Counted from the first letter of the whole stretch, positions 11,143 through 49,258 are shown. The stretch is 63,972 nt of DNA, filler included, from Circinaria calcarea (GCA_051942165.1; 5 parts of 5 records of this genome joined end to end with filler, not necessarily neighbours in it), one strand, 5' to 3'. Numbers and translations: made by a program. Notes: a model not told the origin generated them from the sequence alone.

Positions 11143-11685
11143 ATGTTTCTTGACGAAATTGCACGTAATCCGTTGGGCGGCATTTGCGGGCGCCTGGCTG
11201 TTGCATCTTAGCAAGCGATGGGCATAGCATACATACCATCTGAGCGACTTGCTGCCGTTCTCCACCGGATGATTTGATCTTAGCTTTTGGGTTGTACTTT
11301 ACTTGGCTGGACGTGTTCAGTATTCAGCCGATGGGACATGCAACGTGCAGGTTGCGTGCCCCATTTGCCTGCATGACAGAGGTCCTAGCTATTTCAATTC
11401 GCCTTGTAGATAGATAGCTTGAGAATGGAAAGTGGTTAAATTCAATCCATGCGTGTATCGTTAGTTCAATCGAGGGCATAAGTAATACAATCCGCGAGCT
11501 GTCATACCCAAGCTGTATACATATAGTACTCCCCAAAATACTTCCATGTGACGGTGAAAGTAACTTGAGTCCTGCGTGGTCCGTGCGTCCTCGTCCGCAA
11601 CCGACGCCATCATCTCTTCGCCGGGTGAGCAGAAGTTTCTTTCATTATCACCATGAAGCCGTGAACACCATTCTCGACGCCAATC

Positions 11686-12729
11686 ATGGCGACCAACTCC
11701 ATCAAATTGCTTACGGGCAACAGTCATCCACAGCTAGCCAAGCTGGTAGCCGATCAGTCGGTCTCACACATGCGCTTCAGCTCCAGTTGCAGGGCTAATA
11801 TGTCTAAAGCTTGGGCATCGAGCTGACCAAGATTATGGTCTTGCAGTACTCGAACCAAGAGACCTCAGTGACCATCGGCGAGTCGGTCCGAGATGAAGAT
11901 GGTACACTTTTGCGCCGTCCAACTGCTCTCGGTGTTAATCCACTAACCTTTTCCCCCGCCTCCCTCTCAGTCTTCGTGCTTCAGACCACCGCCCCCGGCG
12001 ACATCAATGACGGAATCATGGAACTCCTCATCATGATCTCCGCCTGCAAAACCGCCTCCGCGCGCCGCATCACCGCCGTCATCCCGAATTTCCCCTACGC
12101 CCGCCAGGACAAAAAGGACAAATCCCGCGCGCCCATTACGGCCAAGTTGATGGCCAATATGCTGCAGACGGCGGGGTGTAACCATGTGATCACCATGGAT
12201 TTACACGCGAGCCAGATCCAGGGGTTTTTTAACGTGCCGGTTGATAATTTGTATGCCGAACCGAGTACCTTGAGGTGGATTAGGGGGAACTTGGATGTGA
12301 AGGGGTGTGTGATTGTTAGTCCGGATGCTGGGGGAGCGAAGAGGTAGGTTCCCGTACCTTTACCTTGGAATATTTCCCACAGAAAACGAAGACTGGGTTG
12401 TGTATTCTTGGGGGGGCATTTGGCACAATCCTCAATCGATGTACTTACCCCTCCTCCCACCACAGAGCCACCTCCATCGCTGACCGCCTCGACCTCGGCT
12501 TCGCCCTCATCCACAAGGAGCGTCCCCGCCCCAACGAAGTCTCCCGCATGGTCCTCGTCGGCGACGTCCGCGGCAAAACCGCCATCCTCGTCGACGACAT
12601 GGCCGACACCTGCGGCACCCTGGTGAAAGCCGCCAACACGGTCATGGAGCACGGCGCGCGCGAGGTCGTCGCCATTGTCACGCACGGCATCCTCAGCGGG
12701 AACGCGCTCGAGGCCCTCAACGGCAGTCG
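11686..12729 (+). CDS. Ribose-phosphate pyrophosphokinase (PRPP synthetase), 3'-truncated at contig end
   Basis: Starts [18 protein letters not shown] and contains [33 protein letters not shown] and the PRPP-binding [13 protein letters not shown]. Several short introns; runs into the N linker. Confidence 0.95.
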
Positions 12730-12829
12730 NNNNNNNNNNNNNNNNNNNNNNNNNNNNNNNNNNNNNNNNNNNNTTAATTAATTAANNNNNNNNNNNNNNN
12801 NNNNNNNNNNNNNNNNNNNNNNNNNNNNN
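12730..12829. other. Artificial contig linker (N44-TTAATTAATTAA-N44)
   Basis: 100-nt spacer with a six-frame stop cassette; identical to the other three linkers. Confidence 0.99.
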
Positions 12830-13400
12830 GTATAGCACGTAGTATAATATAATACGTAGTATTATATGGAAATAACACGTAGTATAACACGCAGCATAAT
12901 TTAGCACGTAGTATAGCATAACACGTAGTATAATATAGCTCGCAGTATAGTTTGGAAAGAGTACGTAATATAGCATAATTCGCAGCATAGCATAGCACGC
13001 AGTATAGCATAGCTCATAGTATAGCATGGAAAGAGCACGTAGCATAGCATAGAAATAGCACTAGCACGCAGTATAGCATAGCTCGTAGCATAGCATAGCA
13101 CGTAGTATAATATAGCTCCCAGCATAGCATAGCTCGCAGCATAGCATAGCTCGCAGCATAGCATAGAGGATGGAAAGAGCACGTAATATAACATAACTCG
13201 CAGTATAGCATAGCTCGCAGCATAGCATAGAAATGGCACGTAGTATAGTACGCAGCATCGCATAGAAATGGCACGTAGTATAGTACGCAGCATAGTATAG
13301 CTGGCGGCATAGCATAGCTCGCAGCATAGCATGGAAAGAACACGCAGCATAGCATAGCTCGCAGTATAGCATAGCACGCAGCATAGCATAGTATAACAAG
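12830..13400. repeat. Degenerate satellite built from TAGCA pentamers with a ~17-bp higher-order unit (CGCAGCATAGCATAGCT)
   Basis: Dozens of TAGCA/TAGTA/TAATA pentamers, recurring CGCAG/CGTAG, and interspersed GGAAAGAGCACGTA. Variants are mostly C>T/G>A. Confidence 0.9.
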
Positions 13401-13473
13401 AAGCATAAAATAGTATAAGCTCAGCATAAAAGTTAGTACGCTACGCTGAATGTAGTAGATTTCTTTCCTATTC

Positions 13474-13545
13474 GAGCAAAAAACTAGGCTCAATTGAGTG
13501 AAAAACTAGGCTCGATTGAGCGAAAAACTAGGTCTGATCGAGCGA
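13474..13545. repeat. 22-bp tandem repeat, about 3.3 copies
   Basis: gagcaaaaaactaggctcaatt / gagtgaaaaactaggctcgatt / gagcgaaaaactaggtctgatc / gagcga. Confidence 0.9.
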
Positions 13546-14097
13546 TAAGCTAAACCTAATAAGGTAATTTCTGCGGCCCGAGTGAGAACACCGCAAAATT
13601 TTGGTTCGGTTCGGAAAACCTTGCGCCGAAGTTAAACCCTTCCACTCATTCTTCGTTTCAGGGCAATAACCACGTTATACTTACCACTCCGAGTTTCTAG
13701 TCGCTCTTCAGTACGGATTACTGTACCCGCATACTCCCGGTAATATAGGTTTAGTAACCATGTCATGCTCACCACGCCGAGTCAAAGGAATCCGAATCCC
13801 CCAACCTGTCGAAGCACCATTCACTCTTCCAACATGATAAAAATTATGCCAGCTACTCAGCTTTAACAGTCAAGCTCGCCCCAACACTATCGCTTCTCTC
13901 TCCAACATCTAGCACGTGTGTATGTCTGTTGTTGATCAAGCAATCTCGCCTCGCCGTTTCCTCACCGCCTGTCACTAGTCCCAGGCATCGCCAGCCATCC
14001 CTGCCCGTTTTCCGCAATCGGGCTTTTTTTATTCTTGCAAGCACAATTGGCCGTATATTCGTGGCAGTAGCGCTCGGCGTAACTTGTTTCTTTCAAA

Positions 14098-15082
14098 ATG
14101 CTATGCGCCTTCTGTGGCTTTTCAACGTCGACACAAGATTCCAGCTCCATTAGAGCAGAGGCGGCGGTGGTGGATCGCCGTCGTGTGCAGAATCGTCGGG
14201 CACAGCAGCGATTCAGACGTTAGTCAAGCGATCCACCATAAAACGTTGATAACATTGACTTTCCGTTCGCTCATGGGCTTTACAGAGAAACGTCGTCAAC
14301 AAAAAGCCGCGCCGGAGCAACATCATTCACATCCGCAAAACAGCGCCTCAGATGCCCTAGACGACAGTAGTCCAATGGCTTCCAGCGCGTTGACACCACC
14401 CAGTACACTGTGTACGAGTCGCAGGCAGTCCTCGATAGACCGTCTCGAGGAGAGCCGAGGAGATAATTTCATTGATTTGGATTTCTTTTTGGATCCCAAC
14501 GATCGCTACGGGATGGACAAAGGCGCTGACGACTTCTGGACAACGACACCGAAAGAGACGGCTCCCCTTGCTGCTACTACCCTTGTTCTCCCTTCGGAGC
14601 CGGAAGGCTGCCGAGGACATCCTACAACAAGGAACCCCGGTGATTCTGTCGATAACAACGAAAGTGGCAGAGTGCAAGCAGGCCCGACGGTGCTTCATCG
14701 AGCAGTGCAGACTGGAAACAGCAAGGTCGTACGCCTTTTACTCGAGCATAACGCAGATTGCAACTCGAAGGACAACGCTGGTCTGACACCTCTGTTGGGT
14801 GCAATAATCGAAGGCCATGATGAGGTATTTGAACTATTGCTATCACATGGGGCTGGTATAGGACATGTCGATAATGCTCATCGGTCGGCCTTTCACTGGG
14901 CTGTATTATACAATCGTCACAGGATACTGAGACGACTTCTGAGCTGTTGCGGCGGGGGCGCTACGTTGCTCAACAGACCGAACAAGGACGGAGAAACACC
15001 GTTGTCTGTCGCAGTTGGCGCGGGAAGCGAGGTGGCTGTGAGGCTGCTACTAGAATTTGGGGCCACGGTCAACGTAGAATGA
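14098..15082 (+). CDS. gsfG: Ankyrin-repeat protein with N-terminal bZIP-type basic region (GsfG-like, probable bANK transcription factor)
   Basis: ATG 14098, exon 1 to 14218, intron 14219-14285 (GTTAGT...TACAG). The spliced sequence reads VDRRRVQNRRAQQRFRQKRRQQK. The C-terminus has about 4 ankyrin repeats (GPTVLHRAV, GLTPLLGAI, SAFHWAV, GETPLSVAV). It occupies the gsfG position next to the gsfF-like P450. Confidence 0.85.
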
Positions 15083-15934
15083 CGATATTCGCATCTCCAC
15101 ATGTGGAACCCCAACCGGCATATAAAGATCCGGGCTGGTCGACGAACAGGTTTGACTAATCGCACACTACCATCATTTTGCCCATCGAATTTTGGAGGAC
15201 TCGCATCTGCTAGTATGGGAATTGTGCCGTGAGCTATGGAGATTGTGAAAGAAGCCAGTCCGATTTTTTATTTCTTTTGTTTCTTGGATTACTCTCAGAC
15301 AATATACTTACAGTGTATATAAGAACAAGGCAACATCACGACGTGACACTTTACTCTAGCATTTACCAAGGCCTATCTTGGCGAGAAGGATGCGTGCGTG
15401 TGTGCAGAGCCACATCGGCCGTTCGGGTGCTGACGTTAAAACTTCTCAACGAGCAACTAAGTATTAATTATTAATTCATATGCGGCGTTTTGTTGGCTGA
15501 ACAGCTGTCTGGCTGGAGGATGATTTTTCCAAGTGCTACTGCTGCGGGGGGGAAGACGATTTATGATAACAAGCCGCTAACTGAAATCGGAAGGTACGAG
15601 ATGCTCAATGACACTTCTCATATTGAGGCTCCCACAACGTCTTACCAGACAAGCCTTCCCGCTTCCCGAGACCTGGTTTACCGCGTCTTTTTTCCTTAGC
15701 CCCCATATTATCGTCCTGAGCACCTTATTTCTGTTGGAATTGCGAAAGTGTGACCGCACGACCACAGGTGCAAATTCCTTATTTGATTGTATTTCTCAAC
15801 AGTTTCGGCATTTATTAAATAGCGTTTAACGTATATAGTAGATAGCTTCTACGCGAATATAGAAAATGGTAGATGTTATAACCCCTTCGTGATATATCCT
15901 ATATCTACCATGATACTGGCGGTCTCGAACAGAC

Positions 15935-17625
15935 TTAGAGGCCCCGGACTTTGACCTGAACCTGAAGGCCACTCTGCTTATTGAAAAAGTAGTCATGGGT
16001 CGTCCAGCTCTTACTCGAGTCCACTAAAACAAAATCGAATTTGCGAATCAAGAGTGGTACGAATTTGTATATCTCGCTGAGAGCAATCTGTGACTATGTT
16101 AGTGCTCATACTCTGCCTTGTGGTCAAAACAGACTCACCTGCTTGCCAATGCAAGTCCTAGTGCCCGCCCCAAACACCAGGTTGTTGCATCTGTCCATGC
16201 TGGGATCAGTGCGTTCGATCCATCTTTCTGGACGGAACGTATCGGCATCTGGGCCGTATACGCCCACATCTCGTCCTACGACGGCCGCGTTCATGCCGAC
16301 TTTCCATCCTGGCGGGATGAACATTCCTGATAACTCAATGCCACTCTGACCAACGACTCGAGGCATAGTGAATCCCACGCCAGGATGCAACCGCAATGCC
16401 TCTTTGATCGTTGCCTTGAGAAGTGGGAGCTGGACGACTTCGGAATAACTGGGCAAGTCGGATAGCTTCCCGTTCTCCACGGCTTGGTCAACCTCCTTTC
16501 GAAGCTCTTCATATACAGAACGATCCTTTGCAAGGTAATAGAAGACTGCTTGCAGCTCAATCATAGTTGCGTCCGCGCCTGCTGTCCTACCAAGTCAAGC
16601 GTATCAGCAGATTGTATATGCGTGCGTAATATATGCAGCGGTCACTTACAGAGCTGCAAAGGCCTCGTTCTTGACGTCTTCGATGCCGAAGTCCAATTCG
16701 TTCCCTTTGGAATGGACAATAGTTAGTAGGTCATGCAAAAGATCCTTTCTCTCCCGTTTTTCAGGAGCTGCGACAGCGGAGACTCTGCTGTCCACACTCA
16801 TGCGTGCCGTTTCGATTATGTGATTCATTCCTTTGAGTCCTTTGCGTGCGGTAGAGCTGAGCGTGAATAAACCCATAATCAACCCACGGACCAGAGGCGA
16901 AGAAGCCGCCGCCGTTGTTAGTACGGGAAGCATTAATTCCAGAGATGCGAGGAACGCGCCCTGGTCACCACAATTCTCAATAAAGCCGAGGGAGCGACCA
17001 AAGAAGAGCTCTCCAATAACGTCGTAGGCGTACCTAGCGAACGCATTTTATTAATATGTAGCCGCTATAGATCAGGAAGAGATGAGTCTCACCATAGAAA
17101 CCAGTCCCCGAGATCAATCGCTTGATCGGGAACAGTACGCTCGATCATACATTTGATAAACAAGCGGCTGCAGTCATCAATGTAAGACTCAAAGGTCAAG
17201 ACAGATGACATACTGTACACGCTGTTCACGATGCGTCTTCGCTCAAAGTGCAGCTTTTCGTCGACAATGGCAAACGCATTGGGATATTTGGAGAAGGCTC
17301 CCACATCCCAAATATGATAGAAATCAGACTTGTTGAGTGGTGAGGTTGTGCTGTATATCTTGCGAATAGCTTCGGGATCTGCACAAGCGACCTCATCTGG
17401 CGCGATACGGACCAGTGGTCCGTATCTCTGGTGCAACTCCCGTTGCACCACATCCAAGTCTCCTCTTGAGACAGCATAGGTCAGCCATAGTCGGGTGAGG
17501 GACGGCCAAAACGGCCCAGGAACTTTGCTGAGAGGATGAAACGTCTGGCAGTAGATGCACCACGACACGAGATAAACAAAGGCGGCACACAAACCAGCAC
17601 CGAGAATTAAACCAATAGTCATCAT
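15935..17625 (-). CDS. gsfF: Cytochrome P450, GsfF-like (grisan-forming phenol-coupling P450)
   Basis: Four exons rebuilt from ORFs 17089-17625, 16646-16933 and 16124-16564 plus a last exon (IALSEIYKFVPLL...KVRGL-TAA at 15935). Motifs: N-terminal TM and HPLSKVPGP, I-helix AGADAT, EALR, PERW, heme FGAGTRTCIG. Recalled resemblance to Penicillium GsfF; gene order agrees. Confidence 0.88.
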
Positions 17626-18386
17626 CGTCTGTGTATGATTTTGGCCATTTGAGATTTGGGTCAGAGTTTGTGAAGCTCAACAGGGCTCAGCCTCTGTATA
17701 GACATATCACGGGAATGAGACGCAGGTTCAGGTAGGATTTATAAGTGAGTGTGCTGTAGCAATAATCAGGACCGTAATCTGGATCATGACCGGTACTTTG
17801 CATACTTGCTAGGATTACAGCAATGATTATGATCGCGAATTTTGTGGATTTTGGTGAGGATTGAGATGTATCTGGCCGATTACGCCAAGCCTCAAGATGT
17901 GGTGTGCTTACTATCTCTCGTCTGCCTCATCATGATGCAGACCACGGCAACAAAACACTCCCTTAATAAATAACTTATTTTATGACCGTTGGGGGGACTA
18001 AGGCAGCCTGCACTGAGACGTAATCACAGACAAAAATTACATCATATTACTATGCCGCTATTCGATTGATTAATTCGCACAGCTTACACGCACTCTAGGA
18101 TTCTGGGAGAGAAGGGTAGGCTTCTGCAGGCTAAGCTTACACTGCAAATCATGTCAGCTTGATGACAACCCCTTTGCCTTGTTCGTTCATTTCGTCGACA
18201 GGCGAGCTACACGGTTGTCCACAGTCGACCTGGTAGGAGGGGGGTTAGTCGGGTAGGACAATTAATATGACCGGCCCAGCTATCTATCAGGACTGTATAC
18301 CATACGTCCTCTGATGATCGGTATCCGCTCAGTAGTACTCAGCACTGGTTTTCACTCGGATCAGGTCACCACTTGCAGGTCACGAC

Positions 18387-19520
18387 ATGGCAAAAACGGC
18401 CTTTATCACCGGTGCCAATGGCATCAGCGGTAGCGCCGTTGTTGAGCATCTCTGCAACAAAACCACCTCTGACGACTGGGACTCCATTATCGTCACGTCG
18501 AGGAGTCCGTTCAATCCTACCGTCACGGACCCTCGTATCAAGTTCGTCGCTCTCGACTTCACACATGATGTCCCCTCCCTAGTGGAAAAGATGAAGGAGG
18601 CCTGTGGCCTCGTCAGCCATGCTTATTTCTGTTCCTACCTTCACAAGGACGATTTCGCAGAGTCGTATGCCGCCAACAAAACCCTCTTCGAGAACTTCCT
18701 AAGCGCTCTGGACAAGACAGCCCCCAAGCTGGAGAACGTTACGCTCCAGACTGGCGGGAAGTACTACAACCTCCATGTCGAACCCGTGCCGTCTCCGGCG
18801 CGAGAAGACGACCAGCGCCGCTATGGACCATTCGAAAACTTCTATTTTCCTCAAGAAGACAGACTGGCCGAGCTGCAGCGTGGCAAGACCTGGTCGTGGA
18901 ATGTCATCCGGCCCGAGGCCATCATCGGTGCCAACTCGCAGCCCTATGGCCTGAACGAGGCTCTGACCATTGCCATGTACTTCTTGATCTGCCGCGAACT
19001 GGGTACCGCCGCCCCAATGCCGACGAACCAGCGATACTGGGAGGGCACTGAGGACGTGTCGTACGCACCTTTGATCGCCGACCTGGCCATATTCGTTTCG
19101 ACCCGGAAGTCGTGCGCCAACGAGGCCTTCAACGTCACCAATGGAGACTATTTTTCCTGGCGCTACATGTGGCCGCGTCTCGCCGCAAGTCTCGGCGCCA
19201 AAGCCGACTCGCAGCAGCATTTCCAAAAAGCCGTGCCCCGAGAGGGCGAGTTGCAGCTCGACTGGAGCCTGGCCGAGCGGTGTCAGGACAAGCGCAAGGT
19301 CTGGGAGGACTTGTGCGATCGTCAAGGCTTGCCAGGTGCCAAAGCGACATTCGACCTTGCCGGCTGGGCGGTTGGAGATTTTCTCTTTCAGCGGACGTGG
19401 AGTGCTACACTGAGCGTGAACAAAGCGCGCCGTTTCGGATGGACCGGTCATATTGATTCCTACCAATCCTTCGTTGATACGTTCGATAAGTTTAGACGGC
19501 TCGGGTTGATACCTAAGTAG
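18387..19520 (+). CDS. gsfE: Atypical SDR / PRISE-like enone reductase, GsfE-like (dehydrogriseofulvin reductase)
   Basis: Single-exon 377 aa with TGANGISG Rossmann motif, LQTGGKYY, NFYF and WNVIRP. Recalled resemblance to GsfE; divergent from gsfF. Confidence 0.9.
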   Translation: MAKTAFITGANGISGSAVVEHLCNKTTSDDWDSIIVTSRSPFNPTVTDPRIKFVALDFTHDVPSLVEKMKEACGLVSHAYFCSYLHKDDFAESYAANKTLFENFLSALDKTAPKLENVTLQTGGKYYNLHVEPVPSPAREDDQRRYGPFENFYFPQEDRLAELQRGKTWSWNVIRPEAIIGANSQPYGLNEALTIAMYFLICRELGTAAPMPTNQRYWEGTEDVSYAPLIADLAIFVSTRKSCANEAFNVTNGDYFSWRYMWPRLAASLGAKADSQQHFQKAVPREGELQLDWSLAERCQDKRKVWEDLCDRQGLPGAKATFDLAGWAVGDFLFQRTWSATLSVNKARRFGWTGHIDSYQSFVDTFDKFRRLGLIPK

Positions 19521-19914
19521 TGCATAGAATGCCGTTTATCAGCTCATCAAAAACTCATTCTCTCCACACATCTACAAATGCCATTTCGCCCTCGAGACAA
19601 TGCTGACAAACGGACCCACCTGAGCCGCCCCGACTTGTCCATCAGATCATATAATCTCTTAATCAGGAGCGGCAGATTTGACTGATTCTCTCTCAAAACG
19701 GTCTTAGGAGAGTTACCATTGAGAATGTTCACCCCCAGCGCCATCAGCGCTTGCTAAGTCCTCGAATTACACACATCGCGTTTCAAACGCAGGCAGGTGG
19801 CTGGTAACTTGAACAAACAACGAGCGCATTCTATGAAGCAAATAGTAGAATCACTCTAGGGCCACACTCGATCTCTACAGGTCTGTGCGTACAAGCTAGT
19901 GAAACTACGCCTCT

Positions 19915-21234
19915 CTACTCCCTCTTCAACCTGGCCTCCATGATCGACCAGTCTCTCGGCGTACTCCTTGTCCCTAACACCTCCAACCCGACCTTCTCCA
20001 ATAACGCCTTCTGCTCCGCCTCAGACCTCTGCGCACCTCCACACGACGCGAACATACTTAAGTCGAACCTCGTGATATTCTTCGTCGGATTGAGATCCGT
20101 CGCTAGGGCCTCATGAATCAACAATCTCGATTCGGGACCCATGGCCGCGGCAAATCGTGAGAGAAACTGGGCGGACACGTGGTCGGCATGGTTGTGCAGG
20201 ACACCACGAAGGTAGTAGACGCGGGCGTTTTTGACCGGTTGGGGGTGCGCCATGTCGTGGTCCATGATTTCGACGTCGGGCAGTGACGCGGCCGTGATCT
20301 TGCTAGTGACTTGGGGAAGGTCTTGCAGAATGATGCGACCTCGAGAACATGGGAAGGCGCTGCGGACACGCATGGATTGGTGGCCGAGACCGCCGCCGCT
20401 GGGTGAGACAAGGTCAGTTTGATTTTTTCTTATTTTTCCTTTGTGGGTTTCACCCGAGGAGGAGGCCCTACATGTCGACGAAGATGATGTCGTCTGCGTT
20501 GGAGTTGGTGAAGGCAGTCTCGAAGGGGTAGAAGCTGACAAAATCTTCCTCCTGGGCGGTACGGGGGACTGCCATGTAATCGTTGAAGTATTTGCTTAGA
20601 CTTGGGTCCTTTGACATGCTCTCCCAAAACGTTTCGGTGGTATTGGCCCCGACCTGCCATGCACAGTGGTTGGCGTCAGGTAGCACCTTGCCATCGTTGG
20701 CCCGAAGCCAGGCTGGGAGAGCGAAATATGCGGGCATCAAGGCGATTCTGAGTTTTATCGCGATCAGCAGTGGTATTAGAGCTAGAAGAACGGAGGAAAT
20801 ACAGACTGCGTCATGACATTGCCTTTTCGGTAGGGTTGTACATAGTCCCTAGTGATTGCGTTTGCTGCATATTGACCTAAGGAGACTTGGTCGACCATAT
20901 AATGTGCATCCAACAGACGCAGGATTCGAGCAACCAAAGCTGGATCGGCATTGAGCCGTCCAGCAATATCGGCGGTGCTAAGGGACCCCGAGTGCTCGGA
21001 GAGGACGTCAAATATGCCCATCTCGCAAGCCACACCGGCGCCAAACAGCTCGAGCGGTCCCCATGTCTGCGCTTCCGCAAAAGTCATAGGAGTATGGAGC
21101 TGATGTACAGCCTTTTCAGCAAGACGCAATGCTCGAATGCGAACATTCTCATCGGCAGTGCCAGAAGTAATCAAGGTGGGAACTCGACTACAGAGAGCCT
21201 CGAATTGCTGAACCCATTCCTCGGTGGTAGACAT
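19915..21234 (-). CDS. gsfD: SAM-dependent O-methyltransferase, GsfD-like
   Basis: Introns 20748-20806 and 20399-20471 restore a single frame. FVDIGGGLGH SAM motif is split by intron 2; also ILQDLP and YYLRGVLHN. Confidence 0.85.
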
Positions 21235-21681
21235 AGTGATGTGGTGGATGAGATATGACGCTGCCTAGCCAAGAGGAGAAAGCCACGGGGAGACTCCACA
21301 TCTTATATACTCCGTACAGAGGACGCTGAACACGTCAAGGAGTTATGCATATCTATTGAAGTATTACATTTACATTTACATTTACAGATAGCCGGCATGC
21401 TGACATGCACCAAGCGACCATGACACCACGTGACCATGACAAGTTGTGACAGACGGCTTACATAGCTGACCGCATCCACAACATTGTATGCAGACGCTGG
21501 TGCGCAAACAACGACAACTCGGACCGAGAAGCCTACAGCGCGTCGGCAACCAACACGAATACATAAAGGCCTGTGAGTCCATGTTTGTAATCCTCATTAT
21601 TGGAAAAGCATCCACTCTCCACTTTGAGAACAACACTTCCTTGCCCTTCTCACTCCAGCTGCTTTCATTCAATCACGCATC

Positions 21682-22872
21682 ATGGCGGTTGATCAGCTCA
21701 GTCGTATCCAGGCCCTTGCGGCAGAAATCGCCGACTTGAGCAAAAGCTTTGAGGGTTCTTCCGAACTATTCATGGCCGACAGCCTGCCGTGCTTGAAGAA
21801 ATCTGAGGAACTTGTCGGTCTGGTGCAGTCCCCTGCCGAGCATGCCACGTCGTTCATTGTCAAAACCATGGAGACGGCTGTGATCAGGACGCTGTTATCG
21901 TTGAATGTCCTGCGGACCATTCCGGCTGCAGGTTCCATCTCTCTCCAAAGGCTTGCGGTGGCCACCGAGACCCAAGCGTCCCTGCTCGAGCGTCTCCTGA
22001 GGGTGGTGACAAGAACGGGGTTTCTTATCCGCGAGAATGGCGCATACCGCCACACGCACACATCCTTGGCCTATGCCGGACCGATTGGGGCACTTTTCGC
22101 GCCCTGCTACGACGAAGGAATTCGGGCCTTGATCAGGCTGCCCGAGTATCTGTCTGTGAAGGACAAGGAGGAGGCGAAAAGCGCTAGGCACAGTCCTTTC
22201 ACGTGGAATGAAGGCCAAGAGGGCAAGTCCACATTTGAGATTCTCTCCACGATGCCGGCAAGAATGGAAGGCATACACACTTTGGCAATGAACGTCCAGC
22301 ATTTGCGGCCATACACTGGCTTCTTTAACTATGCCAAACTGGTCTCGGAAGATCGCGAAAGACCCGTTTTTGTGGACGTGGGCGGGGGCAATGGACACGT
22401 TATCAAGGAGGTCCTGCAAGCATTCCCGCAGATCCGGCCTGAACAGTGCGTCTTGGAAGATCGTGCAGAGACCCTCGAGCTGGCCAGGACGACGGGCTTG
22501 CTTCCTGTTGGCGTGCAGCTTCTCGAGCACGACTACCTCACTCGTCAGCCAATCTTGAATGCGAAAGCATACCACATACGCGCGGTAGCTTATAATCTGG
22601 GCGATGCCGAACTCGTCCAACTGTTGAAGCAGATAGTGCCAGTGATGGGCCCAGATTCAAAAGTGTTGATCGCCGAGAATATCCTGTCTGACGACAACGG
22701 CACTGCCTTCAGCACAGTGTCAGACATGATCATGTTGTGCATCGGCGGCAAAGAAAGAACGGAGCGAAATTTTCGTGAAGTCCTCGATCAGGCCGGCCTG
22801 ACGATCGATAGTATTCATCGTGCGCCTGGATTGGAGTATGGGATCGTGGAGGCAAGCTTGAGGATGCCATGA
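21682..22872 (+). CDS. gsfC: SAM-dependent O-methyltransferase, GsfC-like
   Basis: Single-exon 396 aa with [15 protein letters not shown] and GGKERT; divergent from gsfD. Confidence 0.85.
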
Positions 22873-23006
22873 GCTCGCAGGAGCAAAAGCGAACAGAGCA
22901 AAATGAATGATCTTCTGCTCTTGCCCTCCCATGACATGTGACGAAGTGTGAAAATGTTTTGGGCATCCTTGACCTCCGCTTATTCCTCGGGCTTCGTCTA
23001 CCACAC

Positions 23007-23222
23007 TCAGGGAGAAAAGTGGAAGAAGACGCTGATGGCACGCCAGCACGACGGCACGCCGACGTTGAAGTTGCCGTTGGCCATGGTCTCGCTGGGCGGC
23101 TGCGCATATACGGCGTTGAGGATCAAGAAGGGAAGAGACTGGATAAGGGCTCAGACGGCGACGATTTTGAAGCAGACGAGCTTCATGAGCGCTTTGTGTT
23201 GCGCGAGCATCGAGAGCACTTG
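23007..23222 (-). pseudogene. Degenerate fragment resembling the C-terminal part of an Ost-alpha/TMEM184 (DUF300) membrane protein
   Basis: A minus frame reads QVLSMLAQHKALMKLVCFKIVAV*ALIQSLPFLILNAVYAQPPSETMANGNFNVGVPSCWRAISVFFHFSP*, with an in-frame TGA at 23151-23153. This resembles the HKxLxKxxxFKxV...Q...P...M...F.VG.P pattern of fungal DUF300 proteins (from memory). Confidence 0.45.
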
Positions 23223-23687
23223 ATATAGGTGTCACTGGAAATCGCTGCGCATGATCTGATATCCTTCCAGCTTCTCAATATCCTTCCAGATTTACTGGTC
23301 CTCGAGGGTTCTCTTTGCCCACGCTGCATCCCTAGGCCGCTCGCACTCTCGCACATATGTATCCTAGTCCGTAGCACAACTTTTAGTCGTAAGAACTTGC
23401 GTCAAATACCCATTTCGTCACATTGTGTATGGAAATAATCATGTTCCAAGACCCCGAGGTCATCATCTTGCATGCCCCAGCTATGCGTTGCTTACACCCC
23501 AGTAATCATGCGTTGCTTATATGCATTCACAAGCTATCACGAATCGAGTTGGCTCGAGTTGCTCAACTCCGTCCAAGACTTCGACGTATTACTCCCATTG
23601 GAGACGTCTTATATATATCATGTCCAGAGGCTCTCCGCAGCATGAGATGGACAGCATTTGTTTGCTTTCAAGTGCCACAGTATTACT

Positions 23688-25145
23688 ATGGCCTCCAACA
23701 CAAGTCGATCCGCTCACTTGGCGAAGATAATTAGTAACAACACTACCAAAATCGAGGCATACCGTCAGGAACAAGGATTACCGCCCCTCAGTCTAGGGCC
23801 CGATGCACCGCTTGACGTGAAATACCCACCTAATGTCGAACACTGTCGACGGGCCCTTATCGACGCCAGCCTGGAGTTGAGCGACCTGGCGACAGGTCCC
23901 GTCGAACTGCGTCTCGTACCCGGATGGGCGGTCATGACCATGTTTGCCGTGACCCAATTCATTTTCGACTTTGATATTCCCCACCGGGTGCCTCTCACAA
24001 GCGACGTGTCATACGATGAGCTCTCCAAGACTGTCAACGTCGGTGCGTCCGTCCTCCGCCAGGTCCTGCGTGCGGGCATGCCCTACCACATGTTCTATGA
24101 ACCACGGCCGGGCTACGTGGCACACACGGCGACGACCAAGGTCATGGCGCGGGAGGCACTGATCAAAGACTGGACCGGTTTATCCACGGACGTCCTGTTC
24201 CCCGGTGCAGCTGGGCTGACCAAAGCCTTGAGGGAGGAACCCGCGGCCAACGACCCCGCCAGAACCGGCTTCATGCTCGCCAAAGGAGGCGGCGAGTCCG
24301 GCATGTACGCGTACCTGGAGAAGCACCCGGAGCAGGCCCGCAGGTTCGCAGGCGTCATGGGGGCGTTCCAACAAGATGAGGCGTACGCGCCGCAACACCT
24401 CACCGGCAGCTGGCCGGACGATGTGCAGAGCGGCAAAGTGGTCGATCTGGGCGGATCCACGGGCACCGTGGCCTTTGCGCTGGCCGAGGAGTTCCCAGGG
24501 CTCGAGATCGTGGTCCAGGACTTGCCCGGGGCGCTCGAGGCAGCCCATGTCCGAGAGGGCAAGGATGTGTCGTTCATGCCTCATGACTTTTTCCACGAGC
24601 AGCCTGTCAGGGACGCCGACGTGTGCGTGAAGGCCAATATATCAGATCTCTCTCGGATGTGTGCTAACCGTTGGCCGTGTTGATCCCAGGTTTATGTTTC
24701 GCTGGGTCTTGCACAACTGGCCCGATGCTCATGTCCAACGCATCCTGAGAGCTTTGATCCCGGCGCTGAAGCCTGGCGCCAAGGTCATCATCTTTGACGA
24801 GATCATGCCTCCGGCTGGTACGATGACTTTGAGCGTCGAGCGAAATCAACGGTGAGCCAGTTCTACTCCACTCCTTGCGCCCTTTCCTTCTGGCAATGCT
24901 GATCGTTGGGGTGTTCCAGAAATATTGATTTCGGCATGTTGATCCTCTTCAACTCCAAGGTACACATACCCAGAGAGACCAATACCTTTTTCTCCATACT
25001 CACCTGGAAATCTTAATTGCAGATTCGTGACGTCGAGGAATGGAAAGAAGTCATTGCTCAGTCAGACCAGCGTTTCAAGGTCACGGATGTCAGGTATCCT
25101 GAGGATTCTCGACTTTCCCTCATTGAAATCGTATGGCAGCCATAA
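23688..25145 (+). CDS. gsfB: SAM-dependent O-methyltransferase, GsfB-like
   Basis: ATG 23688 (MASNTSRSAHLA); VVDLGGSTG, VVQDLP, HDFF, FRWVLHNWPD. Three GT-AG introns (24623-24689, ~24852-24919, ~24960-25022). Ends IEIVWQP-TAA. Confidence 0.88.
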
Positions 25146-25554
25146 AAGTCTGATATGCATCGCGGTCCATTGCGGGAAACGTCTCACATAAGACACTGGA
25201 TAGAAGGAGAATTCACACTCCTTATTCTCATCTAAAACGAGACTCTGTATATGAATCGCTCTCATCGTACCTCTATAACTACCGGCTACATATGTGTTTT
25301 TGGAAGCAACGTCCAGCCCACGTAACCGATACCTCTGAAATCTAATAACGCACGGCCAACGCTCCCAGTAGTGTGAACAGTGCAGTGTGGTAGTTCCACA
25401 CTACACCGGCAGTGTACACTGCCAAGACTTTTATAGATATAGCGTAGTGAGCTCCAAATGCACAGATATACTGTGTAGATAGTGCCCCCTCTTGCTATTC
25501 GTGAAACCTTGTGGCAATGTTCCTCCGCCCTCCCTCCCTCTGCCCGTATTACTC

Positions 25555-25654
25555 NNNNNNNNNNNNNNNNNNNNNNNNNNNNNNNNNNNNNNNNNNNNTT
25601 AATTAATTAANNNNNNNNNNNNNNNNNNNNNNNNNNNNNNNNNNNNNNNNNNNN
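25555..25654. other. Artificial contig linker
   Basis: N44-TTAATTAATTAA-N44. Confidence 0.99.
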
Positions 25655-28417
25655 GCCGCGGCGGCCACGGCGCCGGATCTGCCGAGCGAGTTCTTCTTCT
25701 GCACGTTGCCCGTGCCGTTCTCGCGGAGTTCGTCGATTTGGGAGGAGGGAGCTGGGATGGCGTGGTCGGGTGTTCCGTTCGCCGTTGGCTCTTCCGAGAG
25801 GGGTTTCTTCAGCAGGGTGTCGTTGGTGTGGGAAGAGGAGGGTTGTTCCGTCGTGTTTGGGCTTTCTGTGGAGTCTGGGACTTCGAGGCTGTGTCTCAAG
25901 CCTCTCCGGTGGGGATCCGGTATAGCGGTAGGACTCGTCTGGATGGGGAATCTAGTTTCCGCTCCGCCGGTGGACCTGTCTCTTCGATGACCTCTCCCGT
26001 TGACGCCAGCTGCTGACGGTGCGGGACTGGGTGCACGGGATTTGGATGCGATGGCTCGGTTACGAGCTTCCATATTCGCGCGACGATTGCTTTCGTCTGT
26101 GCTGCTGGGTGCCCGTGGACGATTTGGTGTTGGCGCCGTGAGCGAGTGGTTTTGGGAGCTGGCCCGTTTGAGTTCGCCGAAAATCTCCTCTTTGTGGTCG
26201 AAGAGGTCGCGTATTAGACGGTAGCTGTGACGTTCATGCATGGTAAGGGATGACTCGATGCGAGGACGGAGAATGCATGGAGCGAGGGTCTGGGCTAAGG
26301 AGGTGATGAAAGGCTCATCCGCGGAGGTAAGTTCAATGAGGCGTGTGAAGTGCGTAGTGATCGCATCGAGAGTGGCAATGTTGGCAAGGCGGAGCTGGCC
26401 CAACGTATTCTGGAGAACGGAAATGCGGGTTTCAGGGGATGCAGATGAGTCCGGACTCGAATATATAGTTTTTATGATCTCGTAGACTTGTGAGGAAACA
26501 AGAGAATCTATATTGGGTTAGAATTGTCTAAAGGTCATCTAGTTGACTTAACGAGGGATGTACCTGGTAATTCAAGAAGATATAATTTCAAAACGCTCGC
26601 AACAATGGGTATTTCGTATCTCTCAAGTATCTCACGTGGAATAGCCTTACCAGTATTTATCGAGTTTCGGAGATGATGTGTGGCGGCGAGAGGAACATCA
26701 ACAATCCATATGCCTCGACGAGCTTCATCGCCTTCAAGATCAGGATAATCTGTATATAGCACTTAGTTCCGAAATGACAGTAGAGAGGAAGAGACAACTT
26801 ACGATTATCGAGAAAGGTTAGTATCGTAGTAACAATGATTGGTACACGCTTTCGGTCGTGTCTGGCCCGAGCTTCTAGATCTACTCCAAACGTTTGTTCT
26901 GTCAAACTATTAGCGTTCACATCAAAGTCGTGAGAGCTTGATACGCTTGCCATCGACGTTGTTGTAATAATTGTCATATACTTGCACTTTAGGCACAAAT
27001 GGCCCCGTTCGGTAATTCTCTAGGAAATATCTTAGGTCGCCTAGGGGCTGGACGGTTTCCTGGTAGAGCATCATGTTGTCGACCGTGCTTTGCAAGCTTG
27101 GAATGACGTTGCTAATCGCACCAGAAAAGTCTAGCATGACAGCTTTGATAGCCTTGAGTCGATCTAGTTCACATCGCTCCATGAATCTTAAGTGATCTAT
27201 CATAGTTTCTTCAAGGTTGCAGCGTAATAGATCGAGCTTTCGTACCCCAACTTTGTACTTCTCATCCGCCTCTCTTGCCTCCCTCTGGAGCTTTTCTATG
27301 GGTGTTTCATTTGGGTGGGGATTGTTCAGGGGATTCCATCCCGAGAGCATCTCACCCATGGATCCGATAACTGGAGAATCTGCATTTTCAGCAACTGAGC
27401 CAATGGACGAAACACGGTCCAGTTTCTTTTTCTCAGGAATCCCTGTGATTTGAAAAACTCTTGGACGCCACTGGTAGTTGAGCTTTGAACTGTTCGCGAA
27501 CACGTTTCCGACATTTCCAACCAGCCTTAAGAAACCATTCGACACCAGATCTTGTCCTATTCTTTCGGCATAGCTGATACTAGAGGCACCCATCACTTTC
27601 TGAATATACTCAACAATATCTGCACCGGTGGAGACATTTTGATACGTCCCTAGAAAGGCTACTTTGGTTTCTCCCAACTTAATGGTGTTAAGCATACCCG
27701 TTAAGAGTTTCTTTACTCCCTCTGCATGGTAAGTTTCATCACCAAGCTCAATTGGCTCAGCATCCTCCGGATCTTCGCTGTCAGGTAACTTGATGATTGG
27801 TGTTTTAGGTGCCTTGCTGGCTGGGGAAGTGCTGGGTTCGGTCTTCTCGGGCTCTTGAAAGGCAAGCTTGTTCTCTTCTTCCAGATCCTCCACCTGGCGG
27901 CACTTGTTGAAATACGAGCTCCTCAATTTGCGTACCACTTCTGCCTGCCTGTCATGTGCCTTGATACGGGCCAGGAGGTCATCGCGGGAGTTGTGAACGC
28001 GTGCCGCGTGTGCATCACACCAGCGTGTGAAAGGAAGCACAACCAGCTCACCGATATTAGAAGCAATCTTTTTGTGATTTTTCGAAGCTTCCTCCATCTC
28101 GCCGCGAACGCCTTCATAAGCCTAAACGGTTGGAGGTCAGCTTTATGACATAGATACTCCCTGGTCTTCTTTTTGATTTGAGCAGATACCTTTCGTAGAC
28201 TTGCGCCATCATCCTTTGCAAATCCGCCTGTCATCTTGTCCGTCGTAGGTACGATGTCCCCCAATCGCCGCCCATACAGCTCTTCCGCTTCGGCGCGCAT
28301 TCTAGCTATAGTAAGGACCTGTTGGTTTTCCACAATGCCTTGCTCAAGCTTTCCAAAAAGAACGCCCAGGCCCCCAGCATAATCGCCAGACCAGAAAGAA
28401 TCCGCAAATCCGGGCAT
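25655..28417 (-). CDS. RGD2: Rho GTPase-activating protein with F-BAR, DEP and RhoGAP domains (Rgd2/Rga8-like), 3'-truncated
   Basis: Starts MPGFADSFWSGDYAGGLGVLF (FCH/F-BAR); DEP-like AERIGQDLVSNGFLRLVG; RhoGAP VASVLKLYLLELP and LAQTLAPCILRP. Several introns. Confidence 0.88.
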
Positions 28418-29328
28418 CTTCACTAACGATTCAGGTATTCTCTTTATGGGTAGTATGTGGTGCCGAGAAAGTGATTTTTCGACGAGAGCAAATGTTTGTG
28501 CCGGGTATGTTTGTGGGAAACATCAAGCAAGGCCGTCGGAGAATGGACGTTGGTCCGATTCTGCCCTCGTACCGGCCCTACGCAAAATCAGTCAACTGCG
28601 GCGAGGTGAGTGAAGTGAGTAAGGTACTGGACAGACTGGCGTTAACTGTTGAAGCGACTGAAAACACAATCCACAATCCGATAACGTCTCCGTAAGGCGC
28701 AGGATACCGCTACAGCAGATTACTCTATATACTCGGTGTAGCTTCTTTTGGCTAACTGAAGAATTAAGCGGCGGAAAGATCGACCGGACCCGAGAGCAAA
28801 TAGGCGCCTACGAATGGTACTCCGTAATTACTAGATGATTACTTGAGCGAAAAACATTCAGCTATTCGGAGGTATTGGAACTGCCGTATTAGGCTTAGCT
28901 TAGATGCAGGAAAATTGACCCATCTGTATTCTACTTTAAGTAGTAGTAGCATGAATACTACCAATTCGCACTACTATACGAGGCGGGTGACAAAAAGTCG
29001 TTGCTGACCCTCGAGCAATTTACCAAGCGGGGATGATCAACGAACACCATGCTATCTAATTTACATACAAATTACATAGGAATTAAATAATAATAAACAG
29101 ATCACTTTCTCAATTATATCTATAGAAAGTAGTGAATAACAACCATGGCTCAAGTTATGTCAATATGTACGATTTTCTGAAGTTTCCCTCGGTACTAGAA
29201 TTTCCGGAATCCGGCAAGGACTTTTGGCACCCGCCTCGATAGTATATATTCAACACGATAATTCGAGGATATTACCTTGCAAGATATTTCATCTCTAATA
29301 TAAATTTAAGGCCGATACGCATGCTACT

Positions 29329-30971: not shown

Positions 30972-31433
30972 ATCTGAGAATTACATAGTTGTCTAGCTGT
31001 TATTTAAATGTAGCTTGACATATGATTTATCTCCGGAGACTATCTGTGATGCTCTGTGTAAAACTGGTTTGAACTTTGGATGTAAATCTGGAGTATGGCC
31101 AAAAGAAAGTCTATGCGTGTCTTGTTACCGGTATATTACCGTTGTATCGATATTTTGCAGCTGAGCATCTTATAGTCCGCCGTAGCTTTATGCGTTGCAC
31201 AATTTTAAAATAACCTCGAGAGCCACTTCGTATTATCGACTTCACTAAATAAACTTGTATTATATCAAATTGTGAGTCGTACGTCTGCGGCTGCCTCCAG
31301 TGACTACAACGCTACACCTGTGTAAATGTTCACATTTCCCTCTATCAACAAGTCTCTCTGGTATCCTTGTACTTAAAAGACTTGCAATGTGCAGGAAGAC
31401 GACTCCGAATCTCAAAGTATATTCTCACCCGCC

Positions 31434-37400: not shown

Positions 37401-37826
37401 AACAGGTCAGTCGACTCATTGAGGTGTTGGTAGCATGCTGACCCGGGCGTAGAACTCGAAGAGAGCCTTTCCCAAACGCTCGAGCTCGTGAAGAAATCGA
37501 TATCCAGAAAGGTCAGGATTGTGCAAGACGCACTGCTCGATGCACAGAAGAGGCTATTTCAAAAGCTGGGGGTTATCGATAAATTGCCGGAGTCGGTTGA
37601 AAACATCCTACTGCAGTACGTACCAACAGTGTTTGATGAAGATGATAGCGCGGAGCAGACCCGCATTAAGGCCGCAGAGACGGCTCTGGTCATAGTGTCC
37701 ATCGCACAGAAGGGAGGGAAGCTCAGCTCGTTGCTCAAGCAAAAGGTCGAGTCAGCCAAAAGGCATGAGCGGAGTTCCTCGGTCGTGCGAATTTTAGAGC
37801 GAGTGCAGATTTCTTTGGACGTTTGA
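31434..37826 (+). CDS. ECM29: Proteasome adaptor Ecm29 (HEAT-repeat protein), multi-exon
   Basis: N-terminus ELALVGKVELRIAL...YLAPLLLKLGSE; conserved SLASEVGDPSLVYRFMSLASNNAIWSSRAAFGRFG, LYRYRFDPN, EWRVRQASCAAIADL, DDIKESVR, GKTWDGKE. Confidence 0.93.
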
Positions 37827-49253: not shown

Positions 49254-49258
49254 CCTCG

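What the first reader, a model, noticed from the sequence alone, without database searches (positions are those of the whole stretch)
14098..25145. Intact griseofulvin tailoring block (gsfG-F-E-D-C-B), possibly in an unreported producer
Seen: ankyrin protein, P450, PRISE-like reductase and three O-methyltransferases in a row, all with intact frames and canonical introns. Known: in the griseofulvin pathway GsfB and GsfC methylate the GsfA benzophenone, GsfI chlorinates, GsfF couples the rings to the grisan, GsfD methylates and GsfE reduces. Content and alphabetical order match, and the proteins look very close to the Penicillium ones as I recall them. Inference: the organism can make griseofulvin or dechlorogriseofulvin if gsfA (and gsfI) lie beyond the contig end 400 bp after gsfB. 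If housekeeping genes such as TOM1 and ECM29 are far more distant from Penicillium than these are, the cluster moved horizontally.
Basis: partly seen in the sequence, partly recalled or inferred. Interest (0 to 1): 0.75.

Follow-up and report, generated by a model that had tools for sequence, protein, structure and literature searches.

The report
Griseofulvin gene block beside lichen-fungus contigs
One 12.7-kb contig carries six intact genes of the known pathway for the antifungal drug griseofulvin, but the neighbouring contigs come from a lichen-forming fungus, so the block either moved between distant fungi or belongs to a second fungus in the sample.

Summary
Window 14098-25145 holds six intact genes in the order gsfG-F-E-D-C-B, with nine GT-AG introns and no internal stops.

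- **Identity:** GsfE is 88% and GsfC 87% identical to the named Penicillium aethiopicum proteins. GsfB is 88-91% identical to its Xylaria/Penicillium counterparts and GsfF about 80% to one unnamed representative. No GsfD orthologue was retrieved.
- **Window structure:** the window is five separate contigs of about 12.7 kb joined by N spacers. The gsf block fills contig 2 and shares it with no other gene.
- **Host signal:** ECM29 on contig 3 finds only Lecanoromycetes among its 14 named hits, at 59% identity or less.
- **Codon usage:** gsf third-position GC is 0.63, against 0.49-0.51 on the other gene-bearing contigs.

The block therefore did not descend with the neighbouring genes. It is either a cross-class transfer into a lichen fungus or a contig from a co-assembled fungus, and the window cannot separate these.

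gsfA and gsfI are absent from the window. gsfG reads as a basic-region plus ankyrin (bANK, ToxE-like) regulator. Griseofulvin has been reported from a lichen.

The parts
12830..25554 (.). Contig 2 of five, the whole gsf-bearing contig, bounded by N44-TTAATTAATTAA-N44 spacers
12831..13420 (.). Degenerate minisatellite (17/34-bp unit) at the left contig end. It is the likely cause of the assembly break and is not found on the other contigs.
13472..13552 (.). 22-bp tandem repeat, 3.7 copies, upstream of gsfG
14098..15082 (+). gsfG, 305 aa. Exons 14098-14218 and 14286-15082; intron 14219-14285 (GTTAGT..TTACAG). It has an N-terminal bZIP-type basic region split by the intron, no leucine heptads after it, and then four ankyrin repeats. 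This is the bANK (ToxE/Aps2/Apf2-like) regulator architecture.
   Evidence: bANK definition from PMC4109984
15935..17625 (-). gsfF, cytochrome P450, 505 aa. Exons 17625-17093, 17033-16650, 16586-16139 and 16087-15935. It has the heme loop FGAGTRTCIG, EALR and PERW motifs. Proposed role: phenol coupling of griseophenone B to the grisan.
17626..18386 (.). Divergent gsfF<>gsfE intergenic region, a putative shared promoter. No motif shared with the other promoters was found beyond chance.
18387..19520 (+). gsfE, PRISE-family NAD(P)H enone reductase, 377 aa, single exon, with a GANGISG Rossmann motif. It is 88% identical to GSFE_PENAE.
19915..21234 (-). gsfD candidate, O-methyltransferase, 395 aa. 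Exons 21234-20807, 20747-20472 and 20398-19915. It has the SAM motif VDIGGGLG and an LHN catalytic region. It is assigned by position only.
   Evidence: no orthologue retrieved
21235..21681 (.). Divergent gsfD<>gsfC intergenic region
21682..22872 (+). gsfC, O-methyltransferase, 396 aa, single exon. It is 93% identical to Aspergillus alliaceus and 87% to GSFC_PENAE.
23688..25145 (+). gsfB, O-methyltransferase, 419 aa. Exons 23688-24622, 24690-24851, 24920-24959 and 25023-25145. It is 91% identical to Xylariales sp. AK1849, 89% to X. flabelliformis and 88% to P. canescens. Exon 1 is 96% identical to the unnamed P0241.
25146..25554 (.). 409-bp right flank running to the contig end. No Pfam family was found in the end-open minus-strand frame and there is no sign of gsfA.

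Best explanation
The block is a genuine, intact half of a griseofulvin (gsf) biosynthetic cluster. It does not share the evolutionary history of the lecanoromycete genes on the contigs joined to it in this window.

**How it works.** The pathway is taken from the papers read and mapped onto these genes by orthology and position. It is not assayed here.
1. An NR-PKS, GsfA, makes the heptaketide benzophenone. It is not in the window.
2. GsfB and GsfC O-methylate it to griseophenone C.
3. The halogenase GsfI chlorinates it. GsfI is not in the window.
4. The P450 GsfF couples the two rings oxidatively to the spiro-grisan.
5. GsfD methylates the 5-OH.
6. The PRISE reductase GsfE reduces the enone to griseofulvin.

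gsfG most likely encodes a cluster-linked bANK-type DNA-binding regulator. This is inferred from its basic region plus four ankyrin repeats.

**Provenance.** The Gsf proteins form their own lineage of the cluster. That lineage lies outside the sequenced Penicillium and Xylaria clades and is nearest to Aspergillus alliaceus and to two unnamed proteins. Their codon usage is unlike that of the other contigs. I put roughly even odds on two routes:
- (a) The cluster sits in the lichen fungus after a cross-class transfer.
- (b) The contig comes from a second fungus co-assembled from the same material.

The stated confidence covers identity, intactness and non-vertical history, not the choice between (a) and (b).
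For: **Identity**
- GsfE: 491 hits, 120 listed. The top ones are 93% (unnamed P0001), 90% (three Xylaria species), 88% (GSFE_PENAE) and 87% (P. coprophilum). Identity then falls to 76% (Apiospora) and 68% or less.
- The GsfE clade has 100/100 support on a 0.31 branch.
- GsfC: 93% to A. alliaceus and 87% to GSFC_PENAE.
- GsfB: 88-91% over the full 419 aa.
- GsfF: all four exons align to representative P0362, 76% over 505 columns including a 27-residue gap. The next full-length representative is 40% identical.
- GsfE matches solved progesterone 5-beta-reductases and iridoid synthases at E 1.6e-39 to 3.4e-34.

**Intactness**
- Six complete reading frames and 9 of 9 GT-AG introns. Cofactor and catalytic motifs are present.
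- Private changes at columns invariant in all other orthologues are few. They number 2 of 217 (GsfE), 2 of 203 (GsfC) and 8 of 216 (GsfB), within the range of the other rows.

**Non-vertical history**
- ECM29 is 82% and 79% identical to unnamed proteins. It is 59% or less to every named hit, and all 14 named hits are Lecanoromycetes (lineages).
- The window falls on the Ostropomycetidae side of a 100* split in the ECM29 tree.
- The nearest lecanoromycete homologues of GsfE and GsfC are only 61% (Hypocenomyce) and 38% (Xylographa) identical.
- Third-position GC is 0.629 for the gsf genes (bootstrap 0.608-0.648). It is 0.488, 0.495 and 0.505 on contigs 1, 3 and 5.
- Codon-usage (RSCU) correlation is 0.28-0.39 between gsf and the others, against 0.46-0.61 among the others.
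- The window lies outside the Penicillium clade (99/98*) and the Xylaria clade (100/100) in the concatenated tree.

**gsfG**
- The basic-region pattern occurs once in six frames of the window and 0 times in 100 shuffles.
- There are four Ank stretches.
Against: - GsfD has no orthologue evidence. None of the three exon fragments found a hit of 50% or more among the 120 proteins fetched. The best hit for the spliced protein is 28-31% identical.
- The GsfF relative is unnamed. Its name could not be looked up.
- gsfA and gsfI are not in the window. None of the 19 long ORFs scanned on the other four contigs is a PKS or a halogenase. Production therefore cannot be inferred.
- Inside the Gsf clade the trees are star-like, with 9 of 21 and 12 of 26 forks unresolved. 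The nearest lineage is not settled.
- Tetranucleotide correlations of contig 2 with the others are 0.62-0.80, against 0.63-0.83 among the others. Non-coding GC is 0.471, against 0.454-0.503. Neither marks the contig as foreign.
- The host placement rests on one gene on one other contig.
- The bANK reading of gsfG rests on a motif and a predicted intron. No GsfG orthologue or bANK protein was compared.
Confidence: 0.85

Rival explanations
1. Route (b): the gsf contig belongs to a different fungus present in the sequenced material. This could be an endolichenic, lichenicolous or culture contaminant from Eurotiales, Xylariales or an unsequenced relative. It was then assembled or binned together with the lichen fungus. 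The lichen fungus itself would have no gsf cluster.
For: - No host gene lies on the contig, and one end stops in a minisatellite.
- Codon usage differs from contigs 1, 3 and 5. Contig 5 is itself made of secondary-metabolism-type genes.
- No named lecanoromycete appears among the Gsf-level hits.
- No DNA is shared with the other contigs.
- Xylaria endophytes occur in lichens and make griseofulvin (passages seen; listing).
Against: - The proteins are at most 93-96% identical to anything in the collection. They lie outside the sequenced Penicillium and Xylaria clades, so this is not a common sequenced contaminant.
- The contig is as long as the host contigs in a fragmented assembly. One host contig breaks inside the TOM1 coding sequence. 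That argues for comparable read depth, which is an inference.
- Tetranucleotide profile and non-coding GC are within the host range.
Confidence: 0.45
2. Route (a): the cluster is resident in the lecanoromycete genome after a fairly recent cross-class horizontal transfer. This would fit the patchy, transfer-prone distribution of gsf clusters.
For:
- Transfer of this cluster into Xylaria has already been argued (preprint 10.1101/2021.06.01.446356, passages seen).
- Griseofulvin is reported as a major substance of the lichen Lecanora griseofulva (PMC7398404, passage seen).
- The Gsf lineage is distinct and shows purifying selection.
Against: - There is no physical linkage to a host gene in the window.
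- Third-position GC is unameliorated at 0.63, against 0.49-0.51.
- Four full-text searches found no paper reporting a gsf cluster in a lichen-forming fungus (for endolichenic fungi).
Confidence: 0.45
3. The block is a stranded or re-purposed remnant. Either there is no gsfA or gsfI in the genome, or the enzymes make a related product such as dechlorogriseofulvin or another grisan rather than griseofulvin.
For: Only the tailoring half is visible. gsfI is not within 1.2 kb of gsfG and gsfA is not within 409 bp of gsfB.
Against: - All frames are intact and there are few private changes at invariant sites. This argues for continued selection, which needs a substrate-supplying PKS.
- Both contig ends are assembly breaks, not cluster ends.
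Confidence: 0.1
4. The cluster was inherited vertically from an ancient ascomycete ancestor and kept in this lineage.
For: None specific. The short terminal branches of the window's proteins (0.032 and 0.052) would be compatible with slow evolution.
Against: - Identity of 84-93% across three classes stands against 59% or less within the host's own class for ECM29.
- No lecanoromycete orthologue appears among the named hits.
- Codon usage is foreign.
Confidence: 0.02

Closest known systems
Griseofulvin cluster of Penicillium aethiopicum (the reference gsf cluster, MIBiG BGC0000070 as cited in PMC9210304)
   Same: The gene families and the G-F-E-D-C-B order are the same. GsfE is 88% and GsfC 87% identical to the source-named proteins. 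In GsfC the Tyr in place of the usual catalytic-region His is shared with GSFC_PENAE and all 14 other orthologues aligned.
   Different: Only 6 of the 13 reference genes are visible. gsfA, gsfH-K, gsfR1 and gsfR2 are not on the contig. The window's proteins lie outside the Penicillium clade. The genomic company is lecanoromycete.
gsf clusters of Aspergillus alliaceus and of Xylaria flabelliformis/cubensis and X. curta
   Same: These are the highest named identities. GsfC is 93% identical to A. alliaceus. GsfE is 90% identical to three Xylaria species. GsfB is 89% identical to X. flabelliformis. Xylaria keeps gsfA-G and gsfI only and still makes griseofulvin.
   Different: The window is outside the Xylaria clade (100/100). 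It is unresolved relative to A. alliaceus, for which only GsfC was retrieved.
bANK transcription factors (ToxE of Cochliobolus carbonum, Aps2/Apf2 of Fusarium)
   Same: The architecture matches: an N-terminal bZIP-type basic region, no leucine zipper, four C-terminal ankyrin repeats, and a gene embedded in a metabolite cluster.
   Different: The known members regulate NRPS clusters. No sequence comparison with them was made. Neither the ToxE nor the Apf2 binding motif occurs in the four gsf promoter regions.
PRISE enone reductases (progesterone 5-beta-reductase, iridoid synthase)
   Same: GsfE matches 10 solved sequences over residues 4-376 at E 1.6e-39 to 3.4e-34, and it matches Pfam PF22917.
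   Different: Those are plant enzymes acting on steroid and iridoid substrates. GsfE acts on dehydrogriseofulvin, according to the papers read.

Membership tests
griseofulvin (gsf) biosynthetic gene cluster | GsfE-type PRISE enoyl reductase orthologous to the characterised P. aethiopicum enzyme | tested here: met
   88% identity over 377 aa to the protein a source names GSFE_PENAE. It falls inside a 17-row clade with 100/100 support.
griseofulvin (gsf) biosynthetic gene cluster | GsfC O-methyltransferase orthologue | tested here: met
   87% identity to GSFC_PENAE and 93% to A. alliaceus. The clade has SH-aLRT 99.
griseofulvin (gsf) biosynthetic gene cluster | GsfB O-methyltransferase orthologue | tested here: met
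   83-91% identity over the full 419 aa to proteins of X. flabelliformis, Xylariales sp. AK1849, P. canescens and P. coprophilum. No hit carries the name GsfB. The assignment rests on these species' published clusters and on position next to gsfC.
griseofulvin (gsf) biosynthetic gene cluster | GsfF grisan-forming P450 orthologue | tested here: inconclusive
   About 80% identity over the aligned residues to one unnamed representative, P0362. The next full-length representative is 40% identical. Position between gsfG and gsfE fits.
griseofulvin (gsf) biosynthetic gene cluster | GsfD O-methyltransferase orthologue | tested here: inconclusive
   Pfam O-methyltransferase and dimerisation domains are present with intact motifs. 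No orthologue was retrieved. It is assigned by position only.
griseofulvin (gsf) biosynthetic gene cluster | Colinear gene order G-F-E-D-C-B | tested here: met
   The order was read from the gene models. Genes are named by position in the reference cluster (PMC4700700 Fig. 6 legend). No rearrangements were seen in 12 genomes (PMC9210304 abstract). Gene orientations in the reference were not seen.
griseofulvin (gsf) biosynthetic gene cluster | GsfA non-reducing PKS and GsfI halogenase present | not testable with these tools
   Neither is in the window.
bANK transcription factors | N-terminal bZIP-type basic region without a leucine zipper | tested here: met
   The pattern is found once in the spliced GsfG, at residues 27-43. 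Its core occurs once in the window's six frames and 0 times in 100 shuffles. No heptad leucines follow it, read directly. Pfam on exon 1 alone gave no bZIP hit. The spliced protein could not be sent to Pfam.
bANK transcription factors | Four C-terminal ankyrin repeats | tested here: met
   PF00023 and PF13606 each report 4 stretches in exon 2.
bANK transcription factors | Sequence homology to ToxE/Aps2/Apf2, and DNA binding | not tested
The known ToxE and Apf2 motifs are absent from four gsf promoter regions.

The most novel reading that the evidence does not exclude
A lichen-forming lecanoromycete, on the Ostropomycetidae side of the class, carries a working griseofulvin cluster acquired by transfer from a distant ascomycete class. 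This would be the first genomic basis for griseofulvin as a lichen substance. In this lineage the conserved cluster regulator would be the bANK-type GsfG rather than the zinc-cluster factors GsfR1 and GsfR2.
Probability: 0.4. Interest if true: 0.7.

Novelty: new member of a known kind. Interest (0 to 1): 0.5.

Why it matters
Griseofulvin is a long-used antifungal drug. Its cluster is a textbook fungal polyketide pathway with a strikingly patchy distribution.

- **If the block is resident in a lichen fungus,** the known range of the cluster would extend to a third or fourth ascomycete class. That would be a clean case of whole-pathway transfer into a slow-growing symbiont. It would also explain the chemical report of griseofulvin in a Lecanora species.
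- **If the contig comes from a co-assembled fungus,** it is a concrete warning. Biosynthetic clusters mined from lichen assemblies can be credited to the wrong partner.
- **Either way,** the gsfG reading gives a testable candidate regulator for producers that lack gsfR1 and gsfR2, such as Xylaria.

Tried and rejected
- **GsfD orthologues.** I sent a profile of the window's three O-methyltransferase paralogues, with GsfD as three exon rows. It retrieved GsfC and GsfB orthologues but none of GsfD. The Atlas search on GsfD exon 3 gave only generic O-methyltransferase clusters.
- **gsfG in the Atlas.** Exon 2 gave only generic ankyrin clusters.
- **Name look-ups** for unnamed hits were unavailable.
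- **Reference papers.** Chooi 2010 and Cacho 2013 are not held. Reference gene sizes and orientations were therefore not seen.
- **Linking contig 2 to the others.**
  - The minisatellite and the 22-bp repeat occur only on contig 2.
  - blastn between contigs found nothing except the two retrotransposon copies within contig 4.
  - Tetranucleotide correlations do not discriminate.
- **Promoter motifs.** The ToxE box and the Apf2 motif are absent from four promoter regions. The only 7-mer present in all four is within the shuffle expectation (observed 1; mean 0.24, maximum 3). No 8-mer or 9-mer is shared.
- **Right flank.** The 88-aa end-open frame has no Pfam family.
- **Not used or not available.**
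  - Genome contigs holds bacteria and archaea only and was not used.
  - The phage, plasmid and E. coli collections are irrelevant here.
  - I ran no structure or complex prediction, because none would bear on the open question.
  - The supplements of PMC9210304 were not read.
  - Those of the bioRxiv preprint are closed. They may hold per-gene identities and orientations.

Full report
**1. What the window is.** The 63,972-base window is not one locus. Four 100-base spacers (N44-TTAATTAATTAA-N44) split it into five contigs of 12729, 12725, 12713, 12704 and 12701 bp. They look like neighbours in a length-sorted, fragmented assembly.

| contig | coordinates | content (Pfam) |
|---|---|---|
| 1 | 1-12729 | TOM1-like HECT ligase, open at the contig start |
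| 2 | 12830-25554 | the finding |
| 3 | 25655-38367 | RhoGAP/DEP gene, M19 dipeptidase, ECM29 |
| 4 | 38468-51171 | two Ty3/gypsy elements |
| 5 | 51272-63972 | P450, class IV aminotransferase, SDR, FAD/BBE oxidase |

TOM1 and ECM29 are therefore in the same assembly as the gsf block but not physically linked to it.

**2. Checking the observation.**
- Pfam finds ankyrin repeats, P450, a PRISE Rossmann domain and three O-methyltransferases at the stated places.
- I placed the introns in gsfB and gsfF from orthologue alignments. For gsfD and gsfG I used frame logic at the junctions.
- The six models have 9 of 9 GT-AG introns of 51-73 nt, no internal stop, and terminal stops.
- Orientation is G(+), F(-), E(+), D(-), C(+), B(+).
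- Expected motifs are present: the heme loop, EXXR and PERW in the P450; the SAM motif in all three methyltransferases; and GxxGxxG in the reductase.

**3. Are these the gsf genes?**
- **GsfE.** The search listed 120 of 491 hits. Identities were 93% (unnamed P0001), 90% (Xylaria scruposa, X. flabelliformis, X. curta), 88% (the source-named GSFE_PENAE), 87% (P. coprophilum) and 86% (P. atrosanguineum). They then drop to 76-72% (Apiospora) and 68% or less. In a maximum-likelihood tree the window lies in a 17-row clade with 100/100 support on a 0.31 branch.
- **GsfC.** It is 93% identical to A. alliaceus, 88% to P. coprophilum, 87% to GSFC_PENAE and 87% to X. curta and X. cubensis.
- **GsfB.** The spliced 419-aa protein is 91%, 89%, 88% and 83% identical to 419-aa proteins of Xylariales sp. 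AK1849, X. flabelliformis, P. canescens and P. coprophilum. Exon 1 is 96% identical to the unnamed P0241.
- **GsfF.** The exhaustive representative search listed 150 of 7202 hits. It gave one close representative, P0362, which aligns over all four exons. Identity is 76% over 505 columns, including a 27-residue gap where P0362 looks mis-modelled. The next full-length representative is 40% identical.
- **GsfD.** No orthologue was retrieved. Its label rests on family and position.
- **Order.** It agrees with the literature. Genes are named by position in the reference cluster (PMC4700700, Fig. 6 legend). No rearrangements were seen in 12 genomes (PMC9210304, abstract and Results).
- **Decay.** The window's proteins show none. 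At columns invariant in all other orthologues they carry 2 of 217 (GsfE), 2 of 203 (GsfC) and 8 of 216 (GsfB) private changes. The other rows range 0-10, 0-9 and 4-34.

**4. Mechanism.** I took the pathway from PMC9210304 (Introduction) and PMC9610072 (figure legend).
1. GsfA builds the benzophenone.
2. GsfB and GsfC methylate it to griseophenone C.
3. GsfI chlorinates it.
4. GsfF forms the grisan by phenol coupling.
5. GsfD methylates the 5-OH.
6. GsfE reduces the enone.

The mapping onto this block is by orthology for E, C and B. It is by near-orthology for F and by position for D. GsfE's match to solved progesterone 5-beta-reductases and iridoid synthases (10 sequences, E 1.6e-39 to 3.4e-34) fits an enone reductase. 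gsfA and gsfI are not in the window, so production is not shown.

**5. gsfG is more than an ankyrin protein.**
- Its core pattern occurs once in six frames of the window and in none of 100 shuffles.
- No leucine heptads follow it. Four ankyrin repeats then follow.
- This is the architecture defined for bANK regulators, ToxE, Aps2 and Apf2 (PMC4109984, passages).
- No paper in the library links griseofulvin with ToxE-type factors: two hits, both irrelevant. PMC9210304 treats gsfG as a protein-interaction ankyrin gene.
- Xylaria clusters lack gsfR1 and gsfR2 but keep the remaining gsf genes (preprint). That makes a regulatory role for gsfG attractive.
- It remains an inference. No GsfG orthologue or bANK sequence was compared, and no shared promoter motif was found.

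**6. Whose genes are these?**
- **ECM29.** The 1133-aa exon on contig 3 found 120 listed hits. The best are unnamed, at 82% and 79%. All 14 named ones are Lecanoromycetes at 51-59%: Xylographa (4 species), Lambiella, Alectoria, Puttea, Psora (2 species), Blastenia, cf. Caloplaca, Agyrium, Heterodermia and Haloplaca.
- **Lineages.** I checked 13 of the 14. Caloplaca is placed from recall.
- **ECM29 tree.** In an unrooted tree the window sits with Xylographa, Lambiella and Agyrium (Ostropomycetidae). A 100* branch separates them from eight Lecanoromycetidae rows.
- **Contrast with the Gsf proteins.** These are 84-93% identical to Eurotiales and Xylariales proteins. The nearest lecanoromycete homologues are 61% (a Hypocenomyce PRISE protein) and 38% (a Xylographa methyltransferase).
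- **Codon usage.** Third-position GC is 0.629 for the six gsf genes (bootstrap 0.608-0.648). It is 0.488, 0.495 and 0.505 for contigs 1, 3 and 5. Contig 5 is a fair control because it carries secondary-metabolism-type genes. RSCU correlations are 0.28-0.39 against 0.46-0.61.

The block therefore does not share the history of its neighbours in the file.

**7. Transfer or second organism?** The trees place the window outside the Penicillium clade. Support is SH-aLRT 96 for GsfC and 99/98 in the concatenated E+C+B tree, which has much missing data. The window is also outside the Xylaria clade (100/100) and pairs only with the unnamed P0241. The rest is a polytomy with A. alliaceus. So this is a distinct gsf lineage and not a sequenced common contaminant.

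Everything else I could compute is expected under both routes.
- No host gene lies on the contig.
- No DNA is shared with the other contigs.
- The tetranucleotide profile and non-coding GC are within the host range.

Two pieces of background pull in opposite directions.
- Xylaria endophytes of lichens exist and Xylaria makes griseofulvin.
- Griseofulvin is reported as a major substance of the lichen Lecanora griseofulva (Elix and Ovstedal 2004, as cited in PMC7398404; passage seen). Transfer of this cluster into Xylaria has also been argued.

Searches for a gsf cluster in a lichen-forming fungus found no such report.
- 7 papers. I read the griseofulvin passage of one and only the titles and abstract openings of the rest.
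- 8 papers.
- 5 papers.

I leave the two routes at about even odds.

**8. Verdict.** This is a known pathway, a new lineage of it, and possibly a new kind of host. Its identification is right for at least E, C and B. Its transfer criterion is met. Its own refuting alternative, that the contig belongs to another organism, stays open and needs coverage and linkage data from the full assembly.

Noticed in passing
window 12730-12829, 25555-25654, 38368-38467, 51172-51271: Four spacers of N44-TTAATTAATTAA-N44 show that the window is five length-sorted contigs of about 12.7 kb. Adjacency in the window says nothing about linkage.
   Followed up: yes
window 38468-42269 and 44610-48411 (contig 4): Two Ty3/gypsy retrotransposon copies lie head to head. 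They are 91% identical over 3.8 kb with no gaps. Differences are 252 transitions against 88 transversions, and C/T differences (173) outnumber A/G (79). This may be a RIP-like bias. Both copies keep long gag and pol reading frames.
   Followed up: partly
window 51449-63564 (contig 5): A second group of genes looks like secondary metabolism: a P450 (51449-52721, minus strand), a class IV aminotransferase, a 646-aa ORF with no Pfam family, an SDR and a FAD/BBE oxidase. Their codon usage is host-like, with third-position GC of 0.505.
   Followed up: partly
window 12831-13552: A degenerate 17/34-bp minisatellite runs from the contig end, followed by a 22-bp tandem repeat. Both are confined to contig 2.
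   Followed up: yes
window 21682-22872 (GsfC residue 301 region): GsfC has Tyr where GsfB and GsfD have the His of the usual methyltransferase catalytic region. The Tyr is shared by all 15 orthologues aligned, including the characterised P. aethiopicum enzyme.
   Followed up: partly
proteins P0005, P0006, P0009: GsfE proteins of different Penicillium species are only 83-85% identical to one another. That is no closer than Penicillium is to Xylaria (84-85%). The window's protein is closer to all of them (86-90%) and has one of the shortest branches. The GsfE tree is star-like.
   Followed up: partly
window 61117-61200 and 63766-63822: Two short tandem repeats, of 23 bp (3.7 copies) and 28 bp (2 copies), lie on contig 5.
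   Followed up: no
window 3-10606 (contig 1): The TOM1-like gene runs off the start of contig 1 inside its coding sequence. The assembly therefore breaks in unique sequence, which suggests modest read depth.
   Followed up: no
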